Source: Escherichia coli (lineage in GTDB: Bacteria; Pseudomonadota; Gammaproteobacteria; Enterobacterales; Enterobacteriaceae). From it: a stretch of DNA of 64,000 nucleotides. The DNA lies in NCBI RefSeq assembly GCF_003334335.1, contig NZ_QOWQ01000025.1; one strand, given 5' to 3'. Below, in pieces: positions 1-40,195 of this stretch (position 1 is the first letter of the stretch; the number at the start of each line of letters is the position of its first letter). Under the pieces are notes generated by a model. The model made no database searches and had not been told where the DNA came from. It saw only the letters and a program-made list of their open reading frames with translations. Both the position numbers and the translations under genes were made by a program.

Positions 1-59
1 ACGCGAGGCATCGTCTTAACGAGGCACCGAGGCGTCGCATTCTTCAGATGGTTCAACCC

Positions 60-206
60 TTAAGTTAGCGCTTATGGGTTTCCCCCGCCCTGGTAGTCTT
101 AGTAAGCCGGGAAGCTTATGACTAAGAGCACCACGATGATGATCCACTTCATCATGACCCTTTCCTTATTTATGGCCCCTTCCTCGGGAGGGGCTTTCCC
201 GTTTCA
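60..206 (+). ncRNA. sibB: Sib-type antisense antitoxin sRNA overlapping ibs (approximate ends)
   Basis: Plus-strand region fully antisense to the ibs ORF, ending in a GC stem (175-180 / 189-194) followed by a U-rich tract (195-205). The 5' end is not determinable from sequence. Confidence 0.4.
99..155 (-). CDS. ibsB: Ibs-family type I toxin peptide (19 aa, MMKWIIIVVLLVISFPAY)
   Basis: Manual minus-strand translation gives a 19-codon hydrophobic peptide ending FPAY, matching the Ibs toxin family. K-12 places ibs/sib copies just upstream of mdtA. Which copy (A or B) is uncertain. Confidence 0.5.
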   Translation of the reverse strand: MMKWIIIVVLLVISFPAY

Positions 207-362
207 GCGTCCCGCTGAAATCGTCGGCTTACCTCCTTTCGCCATGCAAGCAGTCTATCGCTAACGCGTAGATAAAATAGTTTCATGTGTTATTACTGGA
301 TGCGTGCTCGCAAATGTGCCCGCCATTCAGACGATTCCCGATAGTGTTTCATAATTCCTCCA

Positions 363-380
363 TTTTTCTCCCTTATTGGC
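363..380 (+). promoter_or_regulatory. BaeR-box-like site upstream of mdtA
   Basis: TTTTTCTCCCTTATTGGC differs at one position from the published BaeR consensus TTTTTCTCCATDATTGGC and lies about 55 bp upstream of the mdtA ATG. Confidence 0.55.
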
Positions 381-433
381 TGGCTACACTAGTATCATTC
401 CGCGAAACGTTTCAGGAAGAGAAACTCTTAACG

Positions 434-1681
434 ATGAAAGGCAGTTATAAATCCCGTTGGGTAATCGTAATCGTGGTGGTTATCGCCGCCATCGCCGCAT
501 TCTGGTTCTGGCAAGGCCGCAATGACTCCCAGAGTGCAGCCCCAGGGGCGACGAAACAAGCGCAGCAATCGCCAGCGGGTGGTCGCCGTGGTATGCGTTC
601 CGGCCCATTAGCCCCGGTTCAGGCGGCGACCGCCGTAGAACAGGCAGTTCCGCGTTACCTCACCGGGCTTGGCACCATTATCGCCGCTAATACTGTTACG
701 GTGCGCAGCCGCGTGGACGGTCAACTGATGGCGTTACATTTCCAGGAAGGCCAGCAGGTCAAAGCAGGCGATTTACTGGCAGAAATTGACCCCAGCCAGT
801 TCAAAGTTGCATTAGCACAAACCCAGGGCCAACTGGCAAAAGATAAAGCCACGCTTGCTAACGCCCGCCGTGATCTGGCGCGTTATCAGCAACTGGCAAA
901 AACCAATCTCGTCTCCCGTCAGGAGCTGGATGCCCAACAGGCGCTGGTCAGTGAAACCGAAGGCACCATTAAGGCTGATGAAGCAAGCGTCGCCAGCGCG
1001 CAGTTGCAACTCGACTGGAGCCGCATCACCGCACCAGTCGATGGTCGCGTTGGTCTCAAGCAGGTTGATGTTGGTAACCAAATCTCCAGTGGTGATACCA
1101 CCGGGATCGTGGTGATCACCCAGACGCATCCTATCGATTTGCTCTTTACCCTGCCGGAAAGCGATATCGCTACCGTCGTGCAGGCGCAGAAAGCCGGAAA
1201 ACCGCTGGTGGTAGAAGCCTGGGATCGCACCAACTCGAAGAAATTAAGTGAAGGCACGCTGTTAAGCCTCGATAACCAAATCGATGCCACAACCGGTACG
1301 ATTAAAGTGAAAGCACGCTTTAATAATCAGGATGATGCGCTGTTTCCCAATCAGTTTGTTAACGCGCGCATGTTAGTCGACACCGAACAAAACGCCGTAG
1401 TGATCCCATCAGCCGCCCTGCAAATGGGCAATGAAGGCCATTTTGTCTGGGTGCTGAATAGTGAAAACAAGGTCAGCAAACATCTGGTGACGCCGGGCAT
1501 TCAGGACAGTCAGAAAGTGGTGATCCGTGCAGGTATTTCTGCGGGCGATCGCGTGGTGACAGACGGCATTGATCGCCTGACCGAAGGGGCGAAAGTGGAA
1601 GTGGTGGAAGCCCAGAGCGCCACCACTCCGGAAGAGAAAGCCACCAGCCGCGAATACGCGAAAAAAGGAGCACGCTCCTGA
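434..1681 (+). CDS. mdtA: Multidrug efflux RND membrane fusion protein MdtA (415 aa)
   Basis: ORF 287..1681 trimmed to the internal ATG at 434 (MKGSYKSRW...), giving the K-12 length. Stop overlaps the mdtB start (ATGA). Confidence 0.93.
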
Positions 1682-14260: not shown

Positions 14261-14290
14261 GCTGCATTTATTAAGGTTATCATCCGTTTC

Positions 14291-14377
14291 GCTGAAAAAC
14301 ATAACCCATAAAATGCTAGCTGTACCAGGAACCACCTCCTTAGCCTGTGTAATCTCCCTTACACGGGCTTATTTTTT
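14291..14377 (+). ncRNA. cyaR: CyaR (RyeE) Hfq-dependent sRNA
   Basis: GCTGAAAAACATAACCCATAAAATGCTAGCTGTACCAGGAACCACCTCCTTAGCCTGTGTAATCTCCCTTACACGGGCTTATTTTTT matches the known CyaR sequence, including the terminator hairpin and U-tail. Confidence 0.9.
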
Positions 14378-14378: not shown

Positions 14379-14440
14379 CGTACAATAAATTGAAATAAAA
14401 GGATTTATTTCTGGTCACGTCCACACATTGACCACATCGA

Positions 14441-14466
14441 CAAAAAAGCCCCTCGACTGAGGGGCT
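14441..14466 (-). terminator. Rho-independent terminator downstream of ogr
   Basis: Stem AGCCCCTC / GAGGGGCT with loop GACT, followed on the minus strand by TTTTTTG. Confidence 0.6.
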
Positions 14467-14478
14467 TCCTGTTTGTAA

Positions 14479-14697
14479 TTACATCCACATAATTTGCTGC
14501 CCTGACGGCAACGGGTGCGGTCTTACGGCGTGGACTTCTCCCGGCTTCACGATGTATCGCTGTACCGACTCATAAGTGATGAACGTGGCGCTGCAATTCA
14601 CGTTCTGACACTGGTGATAACGCTCTTTTGTCGTGTCAGTGATATAGCGGCTTGTACGCGCATGTGCGGCATGCTGGCATAAAGGACAATGAAACAT
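14479..14697 (-). CDS. ogr: Late-gene transcriptional activator Ogr (72 aa, zinc finger)
   Basis: MFHCPLCQHAAHARTSRYITDTTKERYHQCQNVNCSATF...; ORF 14479..14760 trimmed to the P2 Ogr start. Confidence 0.9.
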   Translation of the reverse strand: MFHCPLCQHAAHARTSRYITDTTKERYHQCQNVNCSATFITYESVQRYIVKPGEVHAVRPHPLPSGQQIMWM

Positions 14698-14778
14698 CGC
14701 GAGCACCTCTTCCGGTTTTGTTGATGTTGCCATTTTAGTTAATTTATCCTTATAAAACAAACAGATAAATAAAACACA

Positions 14779-15942
14779 TCACTCATCATCTTCTGTTTCG
14801 TACTCCACATCAGAAAGCCTTACCTCAAGCTCCAAAGACGTCGTGAAGCCGCTATTATTCAGAAAATGTGTCACCTTAGTGATTGTCCAGTCCTGCTCGT
14901 CTATGACGCGCTTAAAGCCTGACACTTTAACCGGTGTTTCCGTGTAAATATCTGCCCGACCGGTAGCCAGGCTGATGGAGAACTCCGCGACGCCCCGTTG
15001 CAGTTTGTCCCACTTAGCCTGAGCGGCGCGCATGGCCTGCGCTTTTGTGGCATATACCGTGGTCAGGGCAAAAACGTTGTCAGCCTCACCGGCCATGTAT
15101 TCACCTTCGCGCGCTTCCGGTACTTTTGGCGCTTTCTTCTGCGTGACTGGTTTCGCTTTCGGGTGCTCCAGTGCGCGCAGGTGTTTCTCTTTCTTTTTGC
15201 GCTTCAGTTTTACCTTCTGCTTTTGTGGCTTCGGGTCTTTGGTGTGTAACCACTTTGCCGTTACGCCGGTATAGGCTCCACGGTCAGCAATCGCAAAATG
15301 ATGGCGGTCGCCGTCGCTGCGGGTGATGGTAATCTGCGGGATTTTTTTACCGCTGGCCGTCACCCCCTGCCCCGCTTTGAGAAACAGCAGTTTTCCCATT
15401 TTTACCGACACCTCGCCGCCGTTGCGTTCAGCAAGGCGGGTCAGGAATTTTGCATCAGACTCCTGCGACTGGTCGATGTGCGGGATTTTAATTCCGGCCA
15501 GTGACGGAGCGACACTGGCTTCCAGCCTGTTACGGGAGGCTATCGCCTCAACAATCGCACCGAGCGTGGTGTCATGCCAGGAGCCTTCCCGGCGGGAATT
15601 GAGCGTCCCGCGGAAATCTGCACTCCGGGCGCGGATGGTGACCACATCCGGCGCGCCCCGGTGTTCAACCTCATCAACGGTGAATTTCCCTTTGCATACC
15701 AGGGCAAAACCTTTCCAGCCGATATACACCGTCAGGACAGCGCCACGAACCGGCAGCCCGACCTGCCCGTCGGCATCGTTCAGTTCAATATCAAGCTGGT
15801 CAGCTTCAAAGCCCCGGTTATCCGTCAGAGTCATGCTCATCAGACGGTCGCTGATATTGCCGGTAATATCCCTGCTGTCGAGCATCAGCATGTAATCCGG
15901 CGTCAGCGTACTGCCTGCATCAAATGTCAGCGCATCCAGCAT
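14779..15942 (-). CDS. D: P2 gpD-like tail protein (387 aa)
   Basis: Position and length match P2 gpD. Confidence 0.9.
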   Translation of the reverse strand: MLDALTFDAGSTLTPDYMLMLDSRDITGNISDRLMSMTLTDNRGFEADQLDIELNDADGQVGLPVRGAVLTVYIGWKGFALVCKGKFTVDEVEHRGAPDVVTIRARSADFRGTLNSRREGSWHDTTLGAIVEAIASRNRLEASVAPSLAGIKIPHIDQSQESDAKFLTRLAERNGGEVSVKMGKLLFLKAGQGVTASGKKIPQITITRSDGDRHHFAIADRGAYTGVTAKWLHTKDPKPQKQKVKLKRKKKEKHLRALEHPKAKPVTQKKAPKVPEAREGEYMAGEADNVFALTTVYATKAQAMRAAQAKWDKLQRGVAEFSISLATGRADIYTETPVKVSGFKRVIDEQDWTITKVTHFLNNSGFTTSLELEVRLSDVEYETEDDE

Positions 15943-16421
15943 TATCCCGCCCCCATCATACCTGTGAATCTGGTCGCCAGACTGCCGGCCTTACCGATGA
16001 GCGATTCCGCCTGTTTACCAATATCGCCATAAAGCGCGGCCAGTGATTCATCAACGCGGGTGAGCGACAGCGTAAAATCAATTTTCCGGGGTGTGCCGTC
16101 TGCAAAGAAAATACTCCCTGTTTCACTCACCCTGCTGATGACATACATACCGTAAATCATGCCGGTGCCATCCAGCAACGGCCACGCCCGGCCTTCCTCT
16201 GCCATCAGCCTGAGCGTGGTCATCGTCAGCTTCCCGCCGGTCAGTTCGGGATAAAGCACACCGGCAAGCGTGATGTTTTCCTCGCCCACACCGAGAAACT
16301 GAAGGGCATCCCGTTTACCGATACGGGAATTTGACGGCCAGCGATAATCTGATTCACGCTGCATGGTCTGGTGTGGCAGCGTCTGGCGCATAAAAACAAA
16401 CATACCTAACGCGAGCATCAT
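15942..16421 (-). CDS. U: P2 gpU-like tail protein (159 aa)
   Basis: Position and length match P2 gpU. Confidence 0.9.
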   Translation of the reverse strand: MMLALGMFVFMRQTLPHQTMQRESDYRWPSNSRIGKRDALQFLGVGEENITLAGVLYPELTGGKLTMTTLRLMAEEGRAWPLLDGTGMIYGMYVISRVSETGSIFFADGTPRKIDFTLSLTRVDESLAALYGDIGKQAESLIGKAGSLATRFTGMMGAG

Positions 16422-16435
16422 TTTTCGTCACCTCC

Positions 16436-18883
16436 TTAACCGTCATGCATCATGCTGGCACGGGCGCGCGCACGTTTATCCCGCTCGTATTTTTCGAGCG
16501 CATCCTGTAACTGGCGGTCGAGCTGAGTCCCCGGCGCAGTACCGCCCGTCAGACTGATGTGATATTCGTTTTTACTCTGGTCCACATAAGAGCGGCCAGC
16601 CGGTGCCGTAACCGGCTGATAAGCCTGATAACCTGCATAAGAGCTGGTCGCCGGAATATAACCACCGGTGCCATACGTGGCGGCATGAGTTCTGGCGGCG
16701 GTCTGGTCAAGTGTGTCTGACTCTTTGTTGATAACACCGAGTTTTTCCAGTACCCAGTCAATACCGCTGCGCAGTTTGTTGAACGCATTAAGCGGCAGCA
16801 TCAGCGCGTCAGCCAGTGCCTGCCCGAACATGACGCCCGTGTCACGGCAACGGTTCAGGGTGTCCCGGGTGGCTTTGACCGGGGCAATCAGGTTTTTAAA
16901 CCACTGCCACGCGGCCTGTAACTTTTCACCCAGCCAGTTAAACAGCGGCTTAAGTGGCGTGAACAGTTCCCCCACCGGCGCAAATGCCGCTTTCAGCCCT
17001 TCAACCACACCGCCAAAGAATGCGCTGACAGGCTCCCAGTATTTACGGATAAGCAACGCCCCGGCGACAATGGCAGCCACCACGGCCACAACCGGCCAGC
17101 TAATCGCACTGATGGCCGTCATAACGGCACTACCAACCGTCGTGAAGATTGCCCCCATTGCGCCTGCTGCCGCGATAATGGCATTGATGCCGGTGATAAC
17201 CGGCCAGGCTACGAGGCCAATGGCACCGATGACACCAATCAGCGCCAGTGCACCACCGACAATGATGCCGATGGTTGACGCCAGTGATTTGTTTTTCTGT
17301 ATCCAGCCGTCGAGTTTTAACACATACTTTGTGGCCGTCTGCGTGAGCTTACGCAGTGCGCCTTCCTGCTGGTCAAACAGGTCAGTCCCCACCGCCTCAT
17401 AAGCGGACTGAAACTCCTTAAAGTCACCGCCGAGGTTGTCCTGCATGATATTTACCAGCTCAGCGGTCTTCCCGTCTGAGGCTTTAAACGCAGCGGTCAG
17501 TTTGTCCAGCTTTCCAGTTGAGGCGGCAGTCATCAGCACGGCGGCGGCTGAGCTGGCCTCCTCCCCGAAAATAGTTTTCATGTATTCAGCCTGCTGGGCA
17601 GTACCGAGCCGGTTTTTCTCAAAACTGGCCTGCATTTCTTTCAGAATGGTAAATACTGGTCGGGTGTTTCCCTTGCTGTCTGAGGTTTTCACACCAAGCT
17701 CTTTGAGTGCATCCCATGCTTTTCCCGTCGGTGCCTGCAGGCGGCTTAACACGGCACGGCTTCCCGTCCCCGCCATTGAACCAGTAATTTTTGCGTCATG
17801 CAGCGCCCCGACCATTGCGGCGGTTTCTTCAATGCTGACACCGGCATTTTTTGCCACTGGTGCGGCATAGGTCAGCGCATCGCTCATACCGTCAAAATCG
17901 GCGGCGGTTTTGTTCATCGTCATGGAGAGAACATCCCCGATATGAGCGACCTTATCGTTTGAAAGCTGAAAGGCGGATTTCATCCCCATCAGCAGGGCGG
18001 CGTTTTCTTCCATCGTGCGACGGTTCGCCAGCGCCATATTCAGCGTGACCGGCGTTGCCGCCTGAATGGCATCAACATCCCCACCGGCTTTCGCAATAAT
18101 AATCTGCGCACCGGCTGCATCATCTGCCGAGGCTGCGGTATTGTCGCCGAGCTGGCGCGCCTGCTTGCGTAGTGCAGCCATTTCGGCGGAGTCTTTTGCC
18201 ACACCGAGCACGGCCTGCAATTCTGAGTTTTTCTGCGCAAACTCATAACCGGGCATCAGCAACTTAACTCCGGCCATCGTTCCCGCAGCAGCAATCCCCA
18301 CACCGGCAGCGCCCACTGAGGCCATATTTCCGGCCAGTTCCTTTCCGGCCTGATAACGCTGTTTGACTGCGTTAAGTTTTGCCTGTTGTGCGCTGACACG
18401 CGCCAGTGCATCGCGCTGACGGTTAAGTTGTGCGGTGGTTTCACTGATACGGTTTTTCAGCCCCTGCTCATCATGTGCAAGATTGCGGGTATTAATTCCC
18501 ACAGCGGCCAGTTCCCGCTGCTGGCGTTTAACAGAATCCGTCAGGCGGTTATATTTCGCCTGTAAGTCCTCCGCCGCACGCTTTGCGGATTCCAGCACTT
18601 TCGCCTGAGCACGGGTTGGACGTTCGGTGTTTTTAAACTGTGTGGCAAGGGCTTCGGCCTCCTGCCGTGCCTTTTCAAGTGCATGACCAGTCACGGCGAG
18701 CTGTGCACTGGTCTTGCGGAATCCCTCAATACGGGATGCGTGACCGTTCAGCTCGCGCAGTGATTTTTGTGTTTCCCGGATATCCCCCGACAGCGACCTG
18801 CTCGCTGTACGGATGGATTTAAACGGGCGGGATGCCTGGTCAACAGCCCTGAGCAATACCTGTAATTTTACATTGTTACTCAT
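16436..18883 (-). CDS. T: Tail tape measure protein gpT (815 aa)
   Basis: 815-aa Ala/Gly-rich coiled-coil protein with hydrophobic segments; length matches P2 gpT. Confidence 0.9.
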   Translation of the reverse strand: MSNNVKLQVLLRAVDQASRPFKSIRTASRSLSGDIRETQKSLRELNGHASRIEGFRKTSAQLAVTGHALEKARQEAEALATQFKNTERPTRAQAKVLESAKRAAEDLQAKYNRLTDSVKRQQRELAAVGINTRNLAHDEQGLKNRISETTAQLNRQRDALARVSAQQAKLNAVKQRYQAGKELAGNMASVGAAGVGIAAAGTMAGVKLLMPGYEFAQKNSELQAVLGVAKDSAEMAALRKQARQLGDNTAASADDAAGAQIIIAKAGGDVDAIQAATPVTLNMALANRRTMEENAALLMGMKSAFQLSNDKVAHIGDVLSMTMNKTAADFDGMSDALTYAAPVAKNAGVSIEETAAMVGALHDAKITGSMAGTGSRAVLSRLQAPTGKAWDALKELGVKTSDSKGNTRPVFTILKEMQASFEKNRLGTAQQAEYMKTIFGEEASSAAAVLMTAASTGKLDKLTAAFKASDGKTAELVNIMQDNLGGDFKEFQSAYEAVGTDLFDQQEGALRKLTQTATKYVLKLDGWIQKNKSLASTIGIIVGGALALIGVIGAIGLVAWPVITGINAIIAAAGAMGAIFTTVGSAVMTAISAISWPVVAVVAAIVAGALLIRKYWEPVSAFFGGVVEGLKAAFAPVGELFTPLKPLFNWLGEKLQAAWQWFKNLIAPVKATRDTLNRCRDTGVMFGQALADALMLPLNAFNKLRSGIDWVLEKLGVINKESDTLDQTAARTHAATYGTGGYIPATSSYAGYQAYQPVTAPAGRSYVDQSKNEYHISLTGGTAPGTQLDRQLQDALEKYERDKRARARASMMHDG

Positions 18884-19303
18884 TCGTGTTTCCGCTTCGC
18901 CGGAGTGCCTTTTCGCGCCATGTGATGAGTTCGGTCAGGCTCATGGGATACAGTTCTGATGGCGGCCAGTGAAATATCACTGCCACATCCGCCATCAGGT
19001 CATCGACCGAGAGATTTTTCGGAAACGTTACTGCACCGAGTTCGGCGACAAAAAACCGACCACCTTACCGGCCAGCGCCACAAGGTCAGGCAGTTCCAGC
19101 GCGGCGACCTCCTGCTCGGTCAGCATCGGTGCCGTCATGCGCGGCAGTACCTTAATCAGTGCATCGACTTCGGAGTTTGCAACCGCAGCCAGACTGACAC
19201 CGCGCAGCGTCCCCGCACTGGGTTTCATCAGCGTGACCTGTTCGATAACCTGCTCACCACGCTTGACCGGATTGTCCAGGGTAATCACATTTTCTTTGTT
19301 CAT
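18876..19303 (-). CDS. E: Tail assembly chaperone gpE (19028..19303) and frameshift product gpE+E' (to 18876)
   Basis: E is a 91-aa ORF. The slippery heptamer TTTTTTG (19049..19055, minus strand) lies in codons G-F-L near the E 3' end. Manual -1 frame reading continues to a TAA at 18876..18878, overlapping the T start, as in P2. Confidence 0.75.
19049..19055 (-). other. Programmed -1 ribosomal frameshift slippery site (T6G) for E/E'
   Basis: GGTTTTTTG on the minus strand, conserved in position relative to P2-type E/E' tail chaperones. Confidence 0.7.
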
Positions 19304-19359
19304 GGTTTTCTCACTTCTGAATCAGGGTTAACCGGTCAGCCAGGCTGACCGGATGAAAA

Positions 19360-19878
19360 TCACAGGCCGATATTTCGGCGGTGTTGCTCCAGCCGGTCGA
19401 CGCCGTTCACCTTCTCAATCATGTTGATGGTGTCGATTTCGACCAGCTCCTTACCGTCCATCGTCAGCCGGAAATAGGTGCAGACCACGGAGATTTTCGA
19501 CTCGGTGTCTTCTCCCTGTTTACCCTCGCCGGTGTCGATTTCTTTCTGACGTCCACGCATGACCACTTCGACGGCCACCGTTTCGCCGGTATCGTCGCGC
19601 TGGTAAGAACCGGCAAAACGAATCGGCACGGCATCCACACCGGTTGCGGCGTAAAGCTCCCAGATAACCGAATCCGGGAAGCCACCGAGCGACCACTCCA
19701 TTGACAGCGCATCGTCATCAAGGCCGAGGTCTACCGGTGCGCTTCCGTTCATCCCCGCACCGCGATAGTTTTCGAGCTTACGGGTCAGTTTTGGCAGCGT
19801 GACGGACTTTGCAACGCCCTGATAGCTGTAGCCGTTCAGAAAGACGTTCATTAACTTGAGTTTGCGCGGCATTGCCAT
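19360..19878 (-). CDS. FII: Tail tube protein gpFII (172 aa)
   Basis: Position and length match P2 FII. Confidence 0.9.
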   Translation of the reverse strand: MAMPRKLKLMNVFLNGYSYQGVAKSVTLPKLTRKLENYRGAGMNGSAPVDLGLDDDALSMEWSLGGFPDSVIWELYAATGVDAVPIRFAGSYQRDDTGETVAVEVVMRGRQKEIDTGEGKQGEDTESKISVVCTYFRLTMDGKELVEIDTINMIEKVNGVDRLEQHRRNIGL

Positions 19879-19890
19879 CGGTCAGGCTCC

Positions 19891-21081
19891 TTAATTGCTG
19901 TTAACCGAAGTGACCAGATTTGCCAGGTATTTATCGGTAATACGCTGGCGCAGGGTCAGGTTTTCAAGAGGAGGCACCGGGGTATAGTCGTAGTCGATAT
20001 ACAGTTTTCCGGCCTTGAGGGTTTCCGCATCGTTGGATTCTTCGCTGAACCAGCAGGTCGCATCCACGATATAGCCGTTTGTTTTCAGCTCACGGAATTT
20101 GGCATTGATGCCGTCAACGATGTCGCGAATCAGCGTTGCGGTGATGGGCTTGTCCACCGCCCACATGTGCGCCTCAGCCATCGTGTCGGCCAGCACCTGC
20201 GCGGTGCGGGTGTAGTTTTCAAAGAGGAACAGCGGGTCATCCGAGCAGGTACGGTTACCCCAGAAGCGGAAACCGTCACGGCGAATCAGCGTTGTGACAC
20301 CTGACTCATTAAGCAGGTCAGCATCGGTGCCGGACTCCTGCAAATCCCAGAATACAGAGGCACTGATGCCGGTAACACCGTTTACCCCGACATTGGACAG
20401 CGTTTTATGCCATCCCTGCTCCTGGTCGATTCTGGCACGCAACCCCAGCGCACGGGCGGTGGCATACGCGGTGGCGGTGGTACTGGTGACCGTATCCCAT
20501 GCGAGGAAATCCGGCCAGATGACCATCAGCTCACGCTGGCTGAAATTCTGGCGGTAGGCTTTCACCTCGGAAATGGTCTTACAGCCCCATGCGCTGATAT
20601 ATCCGAAAGCACGCAGCTTCTGACAGACGGATGCCAGTGCAACAGCCACCTCTTTGGTATCCAGTCCCGGCACACCGAGAATACGCGGTTTAACACCGGT
20701 TACCGACTCCGCCGCCAGCAGGGCTTTCAGTCCGGTGTACTGACCGTTTTCGTCGGTGGTGCCGATGATATTGGAAACGGTCTGCGCGAGTTTCGTTTCC
20801 TCGTCGTCGCCGGTGCCGTCTTCCACACGCACGACAACGGTGACCGGTTTTGACTGGTCGGCGATGGCCTGCAACGATGCCGCCAGCGTGCCTTTTTTAC
20901 CGGCCTTTGCAATTGCGCTCTGTACATTGGTTATCAGCACCGGTTTATTGAGGGGGAAGGTTTCCGCATCCGCATCGCTGGCCGTGCAGACCATGCCGAC
21001 AATGGCCGTGGATACGGTGGAAATGACGCGGGTGCCGTCGTTAATCTCCAGCACCTGCACGCCGTGATGATAGTCACTCAT
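19891..21081 (-). CDS. FI: Contractile tail sheath protein gpFI (396 aa)
   Basis: Position and length match P2 FI. Confidence 0.9.
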   Translation of the reverse strand: MSDYHHGVQVLEINDGTRVISTVSTAIVGMVCTASDADAETFPLNKPVLITNVQSAIAKAGKKGTLAASLQAIADQSKPVTVVVRVEDGTGDDEETKLAQTVSNIIGTTDENGQYTGLKALLAAESVTGVKPRILGVPGLDTKEVAVALASVCQKLRAFGYISAWGCKTISEVKAYRQNFSQRELMVIWPDFLAWDTVTSTTATAYATARALGLRARIDQEQGWHKTLSNVGVNGVTGISASVFWDLQESGTDADLLNESGVTTLIRRDGFRFWGNRTCSDDPLFLFENYTRTAQVLADTMAEAHMWAVDKPITATLIRDIVDGINAKFRELKTNGYIVDATCWFSEESNDAETLKAGKLYIDYDYTPVPPLENLTLRQRITDKYLANLVTSVNSN

Positions 21082-21185
21082 CCGTTTAACTCCGTGGTTA
21101 ATGGGTGCAACTATTTTCTGTTGTGCAGAGTATGAGGCGCTATTTGACCTGGCTGGTCAGTGGATGAAACAACAGATAAAGAAAA

Positions 21186-21204
21186 GGCGGGCAATTCGCC
21201 CGCC
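21186..21204 (-). terminator. GC-rich stem-loop, candidate terminator upstream of FI
   Basis: GGCGGGC / loop aattc / GCCCGCC, flanked by an A-run on plus (U-run on minus). Confidence 0.4.
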
Positions 21205-21481
21205 TGTCCTGATTTGTACTCACTCATTTTCCGCCTGACAATTTACATAGCCCAAATGCTATCAAATCTGACAGCCTGCTTTGAGCGAGTAACTAAATTT
21301 GATTTAAATAAATTATAAGGATTCAAATGTTATTGGCACAAATTCCTGAGATGCAAACAGTCACACTAAGTGTTCAAACAAGGTTCTGGACTACGGCTAA
21401 CTCATCAGTTAAGTTTGTTTCCGACCTGTCGTTTCTTCCCTGTCAGGAGTCACTTTTCGTGTTATTTTTTAAGGATGTTTT

Positions 21482-22261
21482 ATGAGTAATGAAACACAAT
21501 CATTCCTTAGTCAATTGCTAATATCCATAATCTCTATATCTTTAGGGTCATTTCTTTTTGCTGGAATCCTAGAGAGCTACAAAAAAGACCAAGATCTTCA
21601 GGAGGAGTTTATAAAGGATTACTTTAGGCCAATGATGAAATTACAAAGTTCTTGTTCATCTTCACATAATGAACTATTTCTAAAGTATGGAGAGTTATCT
21701 GCTTCTTATCAGCTCATGTATAATGAAATAGTACATATGGCAATGAGCCCTGATTCAGAATTAGGACAACATTATGAAGTTCTCCCGATATCTCTTATTA
21801 AAACAAATGAAGAGTTAAAAAAAAGAGTTGAAGATCTTGAAATGACGGTAAAAAAATGCAATGTCGATTTATTCCTTAAGTACGAAGAGCTTGCATTAGT
21901 TACTGGTTCATATCCAGAGTTTAAGAGGCTGGCGAAAAAACACACTGACACAATTAACTCCATCTATTCAGAAAGACAAAAAAAAGCAAAGGGAAATGCA
22001 AAAAATATAGACCCTGATCAACTAATTCCATTGATGCGGAAATATATTGCCATGGATCCACACACCAATGTAAACAAATCCATGCTTGCCAGTGAAATTG
22101 ATAACATATCTAAACTAACAACACAGCATAATTTGATAATGGCAGAATATGAGGAGTTAATTTTCAAAGAAGATAATGATTTATTTATAACTCTTCATGA
22201 TCTTTATGCAATCAAAATTAGTGAAAAGTATTCAGGTGGATTTATCAGTTGGATATTTTAA
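21482..22261 (+). CDS. Cargo island 1 (Z/fun position): hypothetical 259-aa protein, N-terminal TM helix plus helical domain
   Basis: AT-rich ORF on the opposite strand to the flanking tail genes, with an RBS (AAGGA) 7 nt upstream. Hydrophobic segment LLISIISISLGSFLFAGIL near the N-terminus. Sits where P2 carries Z/fun. Confidence 0.75.
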   Translation: MSNETQSFLSQLLISIISISLGSFLFAGILESYKKDQDLQEEFIKDYFRPMMKLQSSCSSSHNELFLKYGELSASYQLMYNEIVHMAMSPDSELGQHYEVLPISLIKTNEELKKRVEDLEMTVKKCNVDLFLKYEELALVTGSYPEFKRLAKKHTDTINSIYSERQKKAKGNAKNIDPDQLIPLMRKYIAMDPHTNVNKSMLASEIDNISKLTTQHNLIMAEYEELIFKEDNDLFITLHDLYAIKISEKYSGGFISWIF

Positions 22262-39192: not shown

Positions 39193-40194
39193 TCACCGAG
39201 CCATCTTGACTGCATAATGAACACAAAAATAATGTTCTCCCGCATATCTAAAATGATGTTCAATTTTTCTCAAACCTATATATGGAGTCTCCACTTCTTT
39301 AATCCCAACTATCTCATGAGATTCTACACCAATATCTACCGGAGTAATCTCTTTTAGATAATCAATGTATCTCTCACACCAAGCATCAAATTTTGCACCA
39401 GTATAATAAGCAATTAAAAACAAGCGTTTAACATTAATAGGATTATAGTTACCAATTAGCTTTGAATAATGCTTTAATATGTTAGCTTGATCTAGAGATT
39501 TTAAAATCAATGCTTCTATTATAGCAAATAGATTTCCTTTATCTTCAATAACAAGATCTAATTCACCCGCACTTTTACCAGATTGAGACTCTCCCTCTCT
39601 AGTTTGATCTTTTACCTCATAATTCTTAGCTAATAACATATCCCGTATAAAATCATTAAAATCATCTTCACCATATCCTTTAGCAGAGCGACGCCCCAAT
39701 CTTTGAAGCACCCAAGATAAATCACTATCAAACTTTATAAAATTCAAAGGACGCTGCACTCGACCATCCTTTGATATTAAGCTTATACTATTAAGATTTA
39801 ACAAATTAATCCTTTGCCTGATTAATTCATCAATATATCCAGAGTAACTATTATTATCTAACACTACGATATGCTTATCAAAAGTAGTGGCTGCATTAGC
39901 AACTGCACAAACAACTATATCCTTAATATCCTCAGAACTATTCGGCACTGGTGTACGCAATATCTTGCCTGAAGGAGCTTTAGATAACTCAGACTCCCAC
40001 TTCTTAAAAAACAAAAAAGAATCCTTGTTGTTTCCGCAAGACTTTAAATAACCTAAGCGAATTTTTCCATCAGCATCAAGAATCAACTCATTTTCACCAT
40101 TAACAATGGTTTCAATAAAAAAACCGCTAAAAACTTTAACATCAGAAATATTAGCAGCAACAAATTCAGGACACAAACAAACAGCACAAAGCAT
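39193..40194 (-). CDS. Cargo island 3: 333-aa partner/effector protein of unknown family (possible nuclease)
   Basis: AT-rich ORF whose ATG lies 1 nt after the upstream ATPase stop. Contains a D-x3-E-x-K-like stretch (ELDLVIEDKG); no family confidently recognised. Confidence 0.6.
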   Translation of the reverse strand: MLCAVCLCPEFVAANISDVKVFSGFFIETIVNGENELILDADGKIRLGYLKSCGNNKDSFLFFKKWESELSKAPSGKILRTPVPNSSEDIKDIVVCAVANAATTFDKHIVVLDNNSYSGYIDELIRQRINLLNLNSISLISKDGRVQRPLNFIKFDSDLSWVLQRLGRRSAKGYGEDDFNDFIRDMLLAKNYEVKDQTREGESQSGKSAGELDLVIEDKGNLFAIIEALILKSLDQANILKHYSKLIGNYNPINVKRLFLIAYYTGAKFDAWCERYIDYLKEITPVDIGVESHEIVGIKEVETPYIGLRKIEHHFRYAGEHYFCVHYAVKMAR

Positions 40195-40195
40195 A

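What the first reader, a model, noticed from the sequence alone, without database searches (positions are those of the whole stretch)
60..206. ibs/sib type I toxin-antitoxin copy at the window edge with a variant toxin peptide
A 19-codon ORF on the minus strand (99..155) encodes MMKWIIIVVLLVISFPAY, an Ibs-family hydrophobic toxin, fully overlapped by a plus-strand region ending in a terminator (Sib antitoxin RNA). The Trp at position 4 differs from the K-12 Ibs peptides as I remember them.
Basis: partly seen in the sequence, partly recalled or inferred. Interest (0 to 1): 0.25.

Follow-up and report, generated by a model that had tools for sequence, protein, structure and literature searches.

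The report
IS186-split ibs/sib toxin-antitoxin copy

Summary
The ORF is real: window 99..155(-) encodes MMKWIIIVVLLVISFPAY*, 16/18 identical to K-12 IbsB. It lies in the yegL-mdtA intergenic region, with mdtA starting at 434. Rfam SIB_RNA matches 43..170(+), E=1e-12.

The "variant" peptide is ordinary. The ORF is RefSeq WP_012767741.1 ("Ibs family toxin"), and about a third of 5,426 complete E. coli genomes carry a copy of 77..206 that is at least 99% identical. L4W/L5I falls in the variable P6 loop of the overlapping Sib RNA.

The sib gene is not intact. Window 1..76 is the right end of IS186 (76/76 identical to K-12 IS186A). It is inserted in Sib's 5' GGGG-TTT-CCCCC hairpin. Only Sib +14..+136 remains (77..199), and the interrupted copy scores 73.9 bits against 138-150 for intact copies. 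The promoter and first 13 nt lie outside the window, beyond the IS.

ibs and its upstream region are identical to IS-free relatives. At least 39 genomes carry IS186 in a sib hairpin, in both orientations, in three registers, beside several alleles and also at sibE. One lab DH10B case is published in passing.

How the toxin stays silent is inferred, not shown. The candidates are read-through antisense, a paralogous Sib, or low ibs expression.

Verdict: a known system with an IS-disrupted allele. Interest is modest.

The parts
1..76 (+). Right end of insertion sequence IS186 (IS4 family; RefSeq 'IS421/IS186 family'). The 23-bp terminal inverted repeat is at 54..76. The transposase gene lies upstream of the window and reads in the same direction as sib.
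   Evidence: 76/76 identical to the last 76 bp of K-12 IS186A. The IR CATAAGCGCTAACTTAAGGGTTG matches once, at 54..76(-), with 0 expected by chance. The full 1,339-bp element with an identical junction is in JNEC-KY203. Bases 1..~90 match many places per genome and also plasmids.
77..86 (.). GGTTTCCCCC: the right-hand copy of the 10-bp target-site duplication, which is part of the Sib P2 hairpin GCGGGG-UUUC-CCCCGC.
   Evidence: In JNEC-KY203 the same 10 bp flank both ends of the IS. The K-12 SibB fold places this sequence in the P2 hairpin. K-12 IS186A shows a duplication of 2+N6+2 at GGGG-ATCACT-CCCC. The second copy is outside the window.
77..199 (+). The 3' 123 nt of a SibB-type antitoxin RNA gene (equivalent to K-12 SibB +14..+136). 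It lacks its own promoter, the 5' strand of stem P1 and the 5' half of P2. It retains P4-P7, both target-recognition regions and the terminator.
   Evidence: Alignment to K-12 sibA-E and to an intact WI-type copy. Rfam score 73.9 bits versus 137.6-149.5 for intact copies. Folds. K-12 annotation of sibB.
99..155 (-). ibs toxin ORF, MMKWIIIVVLLVISFPAY* (IbsB-type, 'WI' allele). Stop codon 99..101, start codon 153..155, Trp4 at 144..146, Ile5 at 141..143.
   Evidence: An identical ORF is annotated WP_012767741.1 in JNEC-KY203, CUPS03, TUM18780 and Res13-Lact-ER02-39.
97..123 (+). Sib P5 hairpin with loop 108..113 (CGGGAA), the counterpart of SibC TRD1. It overlaps ibs codons 15-16.
   Evidence: Fold. 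Variation among repeat copies falls at 105, 108, 111, 112, 117, 119 and 120. TRD1 is defined in Han et al. 2010, PMC2943612.
136..155 (+). Sib P6 hairpin with loop 143..148 (UCCACU). The four bases that differ from K-12 (143..146) are exactly ibs codons 4-5 (CTACTC to TGGATC).
157..173 (+). Single-stranded J1/7 region of Sib, the counterpart of TRD2. It is antisense to the ibs ribosome-binding site (AAGGAAAGGG on the minus strand).
   Evidence: Han et al. 2010. In SibC, TRD2 needs the P1 stem, and the 5' strand of that stem is missing here.
174..195 (+). Sib terminator hairpin (P7): 9-bp stem, UCGG-containing loop, followed by UUUCC.
   Evidence: Fold. The K-12 sibB 3' end maps to window 199.
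200..433 (-). ibs 5' leader and promoter region (repeat-unit homology runs to about 300), then the mdtA upstream region. Unchanged relative to IS-free strains.
   Evidence: Window 77..433 is 100% identical to many IS-free genomes. Repeat-unit homology is shown. The ibs promoter position itself was not determined.
434..1681 (+). mdtA, the flanking gene that fixes the locus as the mdtA-proximal ibs/sib repeat.

Best explanation
Shown: window 77..206 is the mdtA-proximal copy of the E. coli ibs/sib type I toxin-antitoxin repeat. Its toxin ORF is the common 'WI' allele of IbsB. The sib antitoxin gene has been split by an IS186 insertion into the G4-N-C4 hairpin (P2) at the 5' end of the sRNA. The window contains only the last 76 bp of the IS and the 3' 123 nt of sib. 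In the one genome where both junctions can be read, the sib promoter and nt +1..+13 sit on the far side of the 1.34-kb element. The toxin ORF, its ribosome-binding site and its whole upstream region are identical to IS-free strains. The closest relatives lack the IS, so the insertion is recent. The same hairpin has been hit repeatedly and independently in other E. coli.

Inferred: the canonical ~136-nt Sib RNA is no longer made from this copy. The toxin stays harmless through some combination of three things. (a) Read-through antisense transcripts that start at the displaced sib promoter or inside IS186 and run into the sib remainder; the transposase gene points the same way here, and only one weak intrinsic-terminator-like site was predicted on that strand. 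Such transcripts would still carry TRD1, which alone suffices for repression in SibC. (b) Cross-repression by the neighbouring LL-type SibB that the nearest relatives carry, which shares a 53-nt perfect run across the ibs start region. (c) Low activity of the native ibs promoter. I consider (c) plus residual antisense the most likely reason the allele is tolerated. The opposite IS orientation, and backgrounds without a look-alike Sib (DH10B, JNEC-KY203), are also viable.

The confidence value refers to the structural statement. The functional part I put at about 0.4-0.5.
For: Identity of the locus:
- ORF translation.
- 16/18 identity to IbsB, and alignment to K-12 sibA-E.
- Rfam SIB_RNA hit.
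- RefSeq annotation of the identical ORF.

IS186:
- 76/76 identity to K-12 IS186A, and the terminal IR.
- Chromosome homology starts at base 76/77 in 5,300+ genomes.
- Complete element with 10-bp duplication GGTTTCCCCC in JNEC-KY203.
- Rfam score halved relative to intact copies.

No decay of the toxin side, and a recent event:
- 77..433 is 100% identical to IS-free strains.
- Relatives that are 100% identical over 8.5 kb of mdtABCD have an IS-free three-copy array.

Recurrence:
- 16 genomes with the IS in the same orientation as sib and 23 with the opposite orientation.
- Three duplication registers, five ibs alleles, different repeat positions, and sibE.
- The DH10B case was noted by its authors.

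Target rule:
- GGGG(N6/N7)CCCC, both orientations (Lee et al. 2016), calibrated on K-12 IS186A.

Functional inference:
- SibC nt 1-29 are dispensable and TRD1 is sufficient when the RNA is expressed from a plasmid.
- Identical runs of 53, 34 and 31 nt with LL-type SibB, but 16 nt or less with SibA/C/D/E.
- One weak terminator-like site on the sib-sense strand of the IS, and a stronger one on the opposite strand.
- A Salmonella chromosomal sibA promoter knock-out is viable, and native ibsA expression is low in LB.
Against: - No expression data of any kind, so whether the sib remainder is transcribed is unknown.
- The consensus scan finds no sigma-70-like outward promoter in the IS end or at the junction. 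No paper in the library reports one for IS186.
- One paper treats an IS186 insertion as separating downstream genes from their promoter.
- Han et al., citing Fozo et al. 2008, state that Sib-deficient cells are not viable if the cognate ibs (other than ibsA) is expressed. This is in tension with simple loss of the antitoxin, although those tests used plasmid-borne ibs.
- The left IS junction, and any LL-type copy, lie outside the window. Their presence in this genome is extrapolated from relatives.
- The junction is shared with JNEC-KY203 even though the flanks are 2% divergent from base 323 on. This could mean transfer by recombination rather than an independent hit.
Confidence: 0.85

Rival explanations
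1. The toxin-antitoxin pair is fully functional. The end of IS186, alone or together with the flanking sib sequence, forms an outward or hybrid promoter that makes a slightly shortened Sib RNA, starting at or after base 77. This RNA retains TRD1 and represses ibs normally.
For: Both IS orientations are tolerated, and both bring the same 23-bp inverted repeat next to the sib remainder. 5'-truncated SibC (30-141, 42-141, 46-141) still represses ibsC. The ibs ORF shows no decay in any of the 16 IS-bearing loci inspected.
Against: No sigma-70-like site at the junction in the consensus scan. Only weak hexamers (e.g. TTATGG-16 nt-TAGTCT) were found by eye. No report of IS186 outward promoters in the searchable literature.
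Confidence: 0.2
2. The antitoxin of this copy is simply lost and the toxin is partly derepressed. The IS186 insertion acts as a natural, possibly selectable, switch that raises Ibs levels, giving lower ATP or membrane potential, as proposed for Salmonella IbsA.
For: The promoter is physically displaced. An IS186 insertion was interpreted as polar elsewhere. A Salmonella sibA promoter mutant is viable, has raised ibsA mRNA and shows altered infection phenotypes. Insertions recur in natural isolates from many hosts.
Against: Recurrence is expected from target preference alone, because the hairpin matches the IS186 motif. There is no phenotype or expression evidence. Frequency is low, about 0.7% of genomes, with no sign of spread beyond small clones. 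In the orientation seen here, read-through from the displaced sib promoter is plausible.
Confidence: 0.25
3. The locus is an inert relic. This ibs copy is not expressed or not toxic (Trp4/Ile5 could weaken it), so losing its antitoxin has no consequence.
For: K-12 annotates IbsB only as a 'putative toxic peptide'. DH10B grows normally with IS186::sibB.
Against: The WI allele is kept intact in about a third of E. coli genomes. IS insertions occur equally beside LL, WI, Y and W alleles. Per the review of IbsC mutagenesis, N-terminal residues are dispensable apart from position 5, which here carries a conservative Ile, and toxicity resides in residues 6-19, which are identical to IbsB.
Confidence: 0.15

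Closest known systems
E. coli K-12 ibsB/sibB (b4668/b4437), type I toxin-antitoxin, Rfam RF00113
   Same: Same genomic slot, immediately upstream of mdtA. 118/123 identical over the retained sib segment. The peptide is 16/18 identical. Same terminator, ribosome-binding site and leader.
   Different: Codons 4-5 are TGG ATC instead of CTA CTC (L4W, L5I), which lies in the Sib P6 loop. There is one synonymous change in the P5 loop. The sib promoter and nt +1..+13 are replaced at this position by the end of IS186. In the nearest relatives this WI copy is the third repeat of a three-copy array, with a K-12-like LL copy upstream.
IS186B::sibB in a laboratory DH10B isolate (CP110018; bioRxiv 10.1101/2024.10.01.616104)
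   Same: Same element, same orientation, same hairpin target, intact ibsB downstream.
   Different: The K-12 LL allele. The duplication is GGGGTTTCCC, 2 nt to the left of the one here. It arose in the laboratory, and its authors only listed it.
[quoted passage not shown]
   Same: The same IS lands in a G4-N6-C4 sequence belonging to another type I toxin locus (hokC annotation). Partial junction matches beside hokD/Hok genes occur in many strains. lon-promoter insertions occur in both orientations.
   Different: At hok the IS lies beyond the 3' end of the toxin gene. From my own memory of Pedersen & Gerdes 1999, not checked here, this inactivates the toxin mRNA. At sib it separates the antitoxin from its promoter and leaves the toxin gene untouched.
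Engineered sibA promoter mutant of Salmonella Typhimurium (bioRxiv 10.1101/2025.05.26.656083)
   Same: The chromosomal antitoxin promoter is removed while ibs is kept. The strain is viable.
   Different: Point substitutions rather than an IS. A different species and paralogue. Expression and phenotypes were measured there, but not for this locus.

Membership tests
Ibs toxin family (type I TA) | 18-19-residue hydrophobic peptide with an MMK/R N-terminus and an S-aromatic-x-x-Y C-terminus, homologous to IbsA-E | tested here: met
   MMKWIIIVVLLVISFPAY is 16/18 identical to K-12 IbsB. An identical ORF is annotated as Ibs family toxin WP_012767741.1. The HMM libraries could not be used because the peptide is under 20 aa.
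Ibs toxin family (type I TA) | Encoded entirely inside, and antisense to, a Sib repeat unit at a conserved chromosomal site | tested here: met
   The ORF at 99..155(-) lies within Sib homology 77..199(+), in the yegL-mdtA spacer.
Ibs toxin family (type I TA) | Toxic (membrane depolarisation or growth arrest) when overexpressed | not testable with these tools
   Inference only: residues 6-18 are identical to IbsB, and the N-terminal residues are reported to be tolerant to change in IbsC.
Sib antitoxin RNA (Rfam RF00113) | Covariance-model match above the curated gathering score | tested here: met
   73.9 bits versus a gathering score of 56. Intact copies score 137.6-149.5, and model positions 1-~45 are aligned to IS186 DNA or gaps.
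Sib antitoxin RNA (Rfam RF00113) | Own promoter (TTGACA-15 nt-CATAMT) directly upstream, and a complete 5' end forming stems P1 and P2 | tested here: not met
   Bases upstream of 77 are IS186. The 5' strand of P1 and half of P2 are absent. In JNEC-KY203 they lie 1,339 bp upstream.
Sib antitoxin RNA (Rfam RF00113) | Target-recognition regions (P5 loop/TRD1 and J1/7/TRD2) and the P7 terminator present | tested here: met
   Folds and alignment. Definitions from Han et al. 2010. In SibC, TRD2 function needs P1, which is missing here.
Sib antitoxin RNA (Rfam RF00113) | Expressed as an abundant ~136-145-nt RNA that represses the cognate ibs | not testable with these tools
   No transcript data. No promoter-like site was found at the junction.
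IS186 (IS4 family) | 23-bp terminal inverted repeat and sequence identity to reference IS186 | tested here: met
   IR at 54..76. 76/76 identical to the K-12 IS186A right end. The JNEC-KY203 element differs from IS186A at 1 of 1,339 positions.
IS186 (IS4 family) | Insertion at a G4(N)C4-type target with a short direct duplication | tested here: inconclusive
   The flank GGTTTCCCCC|GCCC fits GGGG-TTTCCC-CCGC (7/8 flank positions). In the window itself only one copy of the duplication is visible, because the left junction is off the edge.

The most novel reading that the evidence does not exclude
The 5' hairpin of Sib antitoxin RNAs is a natural IS186 landing pad. IS186 insertion there, seen in at least 39 of 5,426 genomes, in both orientations, across several paralogues and also in the lab, could work as a recurrent genetic switch. 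It would uncouple a type I antitoxin from its promoter while sparing the toxin, producing subclones with raised Ibs (low ATP, tolerant state). More generally, IS186 may preferentially hit G4-N-C4 hairpins of type I TA RNAs, both sib and hok, and so shape the activity of these loci across E. coli.
Probability: 0.15. Interest if true: 0.55.

Novelty: already known. Interest (0 to 1): 0.3.

Why it matters
For annotation, it matters only in a small way. The Rfam hit and the intact ORF would lead a pipeline, or a reader, to call a complete toxin-antitoxin pair here. In fact the antitoxin gene is severed from its promoter by an IS.

For type I TA biology, these recurrent IS186::sib alleles are ready-made natural antitoxin-promoter knock-outs in wild isolates and in a common cloning strain. 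They bear on an old question: is chromosomal Ibs toxin expression really lethal without its cognate Sib, or are native levels too low to matter?

The mapping of the peptide's variable residues (4-5 and 15) onto the Sib recognition loops suggests that allelic 'toxin variants' such as Trp4 reflect diversification of RNA-RNA specificity between tandem paralogues rather than of toxin function. That is an inference from 17 repeat units, not a test.

Tried and rejected
- **Exact-sequence cluster look-up of the peptide.** The same length limit rules out Pfam, NCBIfam and PADLOC for the peptide. I relied on alignment and RefSeq annotation instead.
- **Orientation-bias test.** If only the IS orientation co-directional with sib were found, that would argue read-through is required. 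Both orientations occur (16 versus 23 genomes), so the idea was rejected as a general requirement.
- **Search for an outward sigma-70 promoter in the IS end or junction, and for terminators inside the IS.** No promoter was found. There is only one weak sense-strand terminator-like site.
- **Compensatory-mutation hypothesis (ibs ORF, RBS or promoter damaged).** Rejected: 77..433 is 100% identical to IS-free strains, and the ibs ORF is intact in all inspected IS-bearing loci.
- **Cross-protection by SibA/C/D/E.** Rejected on sequence: the longest identical run is 16 nt or less. Only an LL-type SibB could do it, with a 53-nt run.
- **Papers not held.** Fozo et al. 2008 (PMC2597788), the 2008 MMBR review (PMC2593563) and SaiSree et al. 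2001 (PMC95536) are not in the library. Supplementary Table S4 of Lee et al. 2016 is also not held, so I could not check whether sib sites were hit in their mutation-accumulation lines. My recollection that SaiSree et al. give the consensus (G)>=4(N)3-6(C)>=4 is from memory only.
- **'Rare variant toxin' reading.** Rejected by the allele frequency.

Full report
**1. What is in the sequence**

The minus strand of window 99..155 translates to MMKWIIIVVLLVISFPAY*, which is 18 residues plus a stop. mdtA starts at 434 and mdtB follows, so this is the spacer that holds sibA/ibsA and sibB/ibsB in E. coli K-12.

Rfam's SIB_RNA model (RF00113) matches 43..170 on the plus strand at 73.9 bits, against a gathering score of 56, with E=1.2e-12. 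A stable hairpin at 174..195 followed by UUUCC ends where K-12 sibB is annotated to end.

**2. The peptide 'variant'**

The five K-12 peptides are:

| Peptide | Sequence |
|---|---|
| IbsA | MMKHVIILVILLVISFQAY |
| IbsB | MMKLLIIVVLLVISFPAY |
| IbsC | MMRLVIILIVLLLISFSAY |
| IbsD | MMKLVIILIVLLLVSFAAY |
| IbsE | MMKLVIILVVLLLLSFPTY |

The window peptide is IbsB with L4W and L5I. The change is four adjacent base differences at 143..146 (CTACTC to TGGATC), and there is one synonymous change at 108.

The allele is not rare. 1,832 records, about a third of the 5,426 complete E. coli genomes, hold a copy of 77..206 that is at least 99% identical. These include E. coli B and O157:H7 strains. RefSeq annotates the identical ORF as WP_012767741.1, 'type I toxin-antitoxin system Ibs family toxin'.

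I compared 17 distinct repeat units taken from the fetched arrays, leaving aside one rearranged copy. Variation among them clusters in three places (folds):
- the Sib P5 hairpin (105-120, overlapping ibs codons 15-16);
- the P6 loop (143-146, codons 4-5);
- the single-stranded J1/7 stretch (172-174).

Han et al. 2010 identified the P5 loop (TRD1) and J1/7 (TRD2), with help from the P6 loop, as the determinants by which each Sib recognises only its own ibs mRNA. They noted that these sit in the most variable parts of the family. So Trp4/Ile5 is the protein-level readout of a variable recognition loop.

A review's summary of the IbsC mutagenesis reports that N-terminal residues are dispensable apart from position 5, and that toxicity resides in residues 6-19. 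The allele is therefore probably still toxic. That is an inference.

**3.

A search of window 1..440 against 5,426 genomes covered 100% in only one listed genome. Essentially all other chromosomes match from base 76 onward, while bases 1..~90 match many places per genome and also plasmids.

Alignment with K-12 shows that the sib promoter (TTGACA, 15 nt, CATACT) and the first nucleotides of SibB are replaced by unrelated sequence upstream of base 77. That sequence is the right end of IS186:
- the 23-bp terminal inverted repeat is at 54..76;
- 1..76 is 76/76 identical to K-12 IS186A.

In strain JNEC-KY203 the same junction is part of a complete 1,339-bp element. The element is flanked by a 10-bp duplication, GGTTTCCCCC, and its transposase gene reads in the same direction as sib.

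The insertion lies in Sib's P2 hairpin, GCGGGG-UUUC-CCCCGC. What remains in the window is Sib +14..+136 (77..199). It lacks the promoter, the 5' strand of stem P1 and half of P2. It keeps P4-P7, TRD1, the TRD2 sequence and the terminator. Intact copies score 137.6-149.5 bits with the Rfam model, while this one and its JNEC-KY203 twin score 73.9. The first ~34 aligned window bases are IS DNA.

**4. Is it a one-off?**

It is not. Junction-spanning queries gave these counts:

| IS orientation relative to sib | Genomes |
|---|---|
| Same direction | 16 |
| Opposite direction | 23 |

Inspection of 16 of these loci showed:
- insertions in the 2nd, 3rd or 4th unit of arrays with 2-4 copies;
- insertions beside five different Ibs alleles (LL..F, WI..F, LL..Y, IL..VSY, LL..W);
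- three duplication registers: GGGGTTTCCC in most, GGTTTCCCCC here, and GGTTTCCC in one;
- one insertion at sibE;
- an intact adjacent ibs ORF in every case.

One event arose in a laboratory DH10B stock, and its authors listed it as 'an IS186B element in sibB' without further comment.

The target fits what is known. Lee et al. 2016 defined GGGG(N6/N7)CCCC, hit in both orientations. K-12 IS186A shows that the 10-bp duplication is 2+N6+2, at GGGG-ATCACT-CCCC next to hokC. Read this way, the Sib hairpin offers three overlapping registers:

| Register | Where seen |
|---|---|
| GCGG-GGTTTC-CCCC | most strains |
| GGGG-TTTCCC-CCGC | this window |
| GGGG-TTTC-CCCC | strain S1-CAM-01-A |

No other paper in the searchable library connects IS186 with sib or ibs genes.

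**5. History of this allele**

Window 77..433 covers the sib remainder, ibs, its leader and promoter region, and the mdtA upstream region. It is 100% identical to many strains without the IS. Strains that are 100% identical over 8.5 kb of mdtABCD carry an IS-free three-copy array: ibsA, Ibs(LL), Ibs(WI), mdtA. The insertion is therefore recent, and no compensatory change has occurred on the toxin side.

JNEC-KY203 shares the junction and bases 1..322 exactly, but it is about 2% divergent from base 323 on (70 differences in 3,440 bases). This means either a second hit in the same register or transfer of the allele by recombination. I cannot tell which.

**6. How it most likely works**

Shown: the antitoxin gene's own promoter is displaced, and the toxin gene is untouched.

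Inferred: the canonical Sib is not made from this copy.

Why the cell tolerates this is open, and three factors bear on it.

(a) Read-through. In this orientation the displaced, reportedly constitutive sib promoter and the transposase gene both point towards the sib remainder. Only one weak terminator-like site was predicted on that strand of the IS. A chimeric transcript would still carry TRD1, which is sufficient in SibC, and SibC lacking its first 29-45 nt still represses. However, the opposite orientation is equally common, and there a better terminator-like hairpin faces the incoming transcription. Read-through therefore cannot be a general requirement.

(b) Paralogue cross-repression. 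An LL-type SibB shares perfect runs of 53, 34 and 31 nt with this copy, including the whole ibs start region. SibA, C, D and E share 16 nt or less. Han et al. found that a contiguous 22-25-bp match at one TRD is enough to retarget a Sib. The nearest relatives have such a copy next door. DH10B and JNEC-KY203 do not.

(c) Low native ibs expression. A Salmonella chromosomal sibA promoter knock-out is viable, and ibsA is poorly expressed in LB. The statement that Sib-less cells die if the cognate ibs is expressed rests on plasmid-borne ibs.

I therefore favour (c) plus whatever residual antisense is present. A junction promoter and genuine derepression are the rival explanations. I found no promoter-like site at the junction and no literature on IS186 outward promoters.

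**7. Comparison with known systems, and verdict**

The locus is a member of the Ibs/Sib family. The toxin features are met. The Sib RNA criteria are met for the body but not for the promoter and 5' end. It is an IS-disrupted allele of a known, annotated system carrying a common toxin allele, so the novelty class is 'already known'.

Two points go beyond the annotation: the recurrent, bidirectional IS186 targeting of the Sib 5' hairpin, which parallels IS186 next to hok loci, and its value as a natural antitoxin-promoter knock-out. That is worth a note to people working on type I TA systems, but it is not a new kind of system. Interest is 0.3.

Noticed in passing
window 14289-14374 (+) and about 14400 onward: CyaR sRNA (Rfam, 100.7 bits) is followed immediately by a P2-like (Peduovirus) prophage. 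Window 14400-22000 is 96-98% identical to the tail genes of Yersinia phage L-413C, R18C and P22H1. The closest IS-free relative lacks it. This explains why the thiM TPP riboswitch, expected at about 30.6 kb by collinearity, is not found in the window.
   Followed up: partly
window 27762-29664 (-): A low-GC island (GC 0.35) inside the prophage encodes a Pycsar anti-phage system: a PycC cyclase (462 aa, E=1e-128) and a PycTM effector (179 aa, E=9e-28) in PADLOC.
   Followed up: partly
window 39193-41863 (-): A second low-GC island (GC 0.33) in the prophage. It holds a 555-aa ABC/AAA ATPase matching PADLOC NsnB, HEC-03B and AriA-like models (E=2e-51), next to a 333-aa protein with no PADLOC match. 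It is possibly a two-gene defence module in a P2 cargo hotspot.
   Followed up: partly
L017 (K-12 15387-16731) and hits H50-H51, H63-H70, H136-H140: IS186 ends also sit directly beside hok-family type I toxin genes (hokC in K-12; hokD/Hok in many strains). The hokC flank GGATCACTCCCCGCCGTTGCTCTTA resembles the sib flank GGTTTCCCCCGCCCTGGTAGTCTTA beyond the G4/C4 motif.
   Followed up: no
yegL-mdtA spacer in L004, L007, L009-L014, L018: The ibs/sib array between yegL and mdtA varies from 2 to 4 tandem ~328-bp units among E. coli strains. The units carry shuffled combinations of alleles (LL, WI or IL at codons 4-5; F, Y or W at codon 15). One array has no ibsA-type unit (L010).
   Followed up: partly
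window 170-286 (-): A single base difference from K-12 (window 285, A instead of C) creates an ATG that opens a 38-codon ORF across the ibs leader on the minus strand. It is absent in K-12 and is most likely a chance ORF.
   Followed up: no
window about 12.2-12.8 kb (by collinearity with L018 35798-36392): The relative's annotation places a ParD/ParE (RelE/ParE family) type II toxin-antitoxin pair between yegP and yegQ. I did not check it in the window itself.
   Followed up: no
L008 (strain Z1323CEC0004): Here the IS186 copy in sib is itself interrupted by ISVsa5 (IS10-like). The DNA downstream of the ibs unit is replaced by an nleA effector region, so an IS-associated rearrangement has its breakpoint in the sib terminator region.
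   Followed up: no
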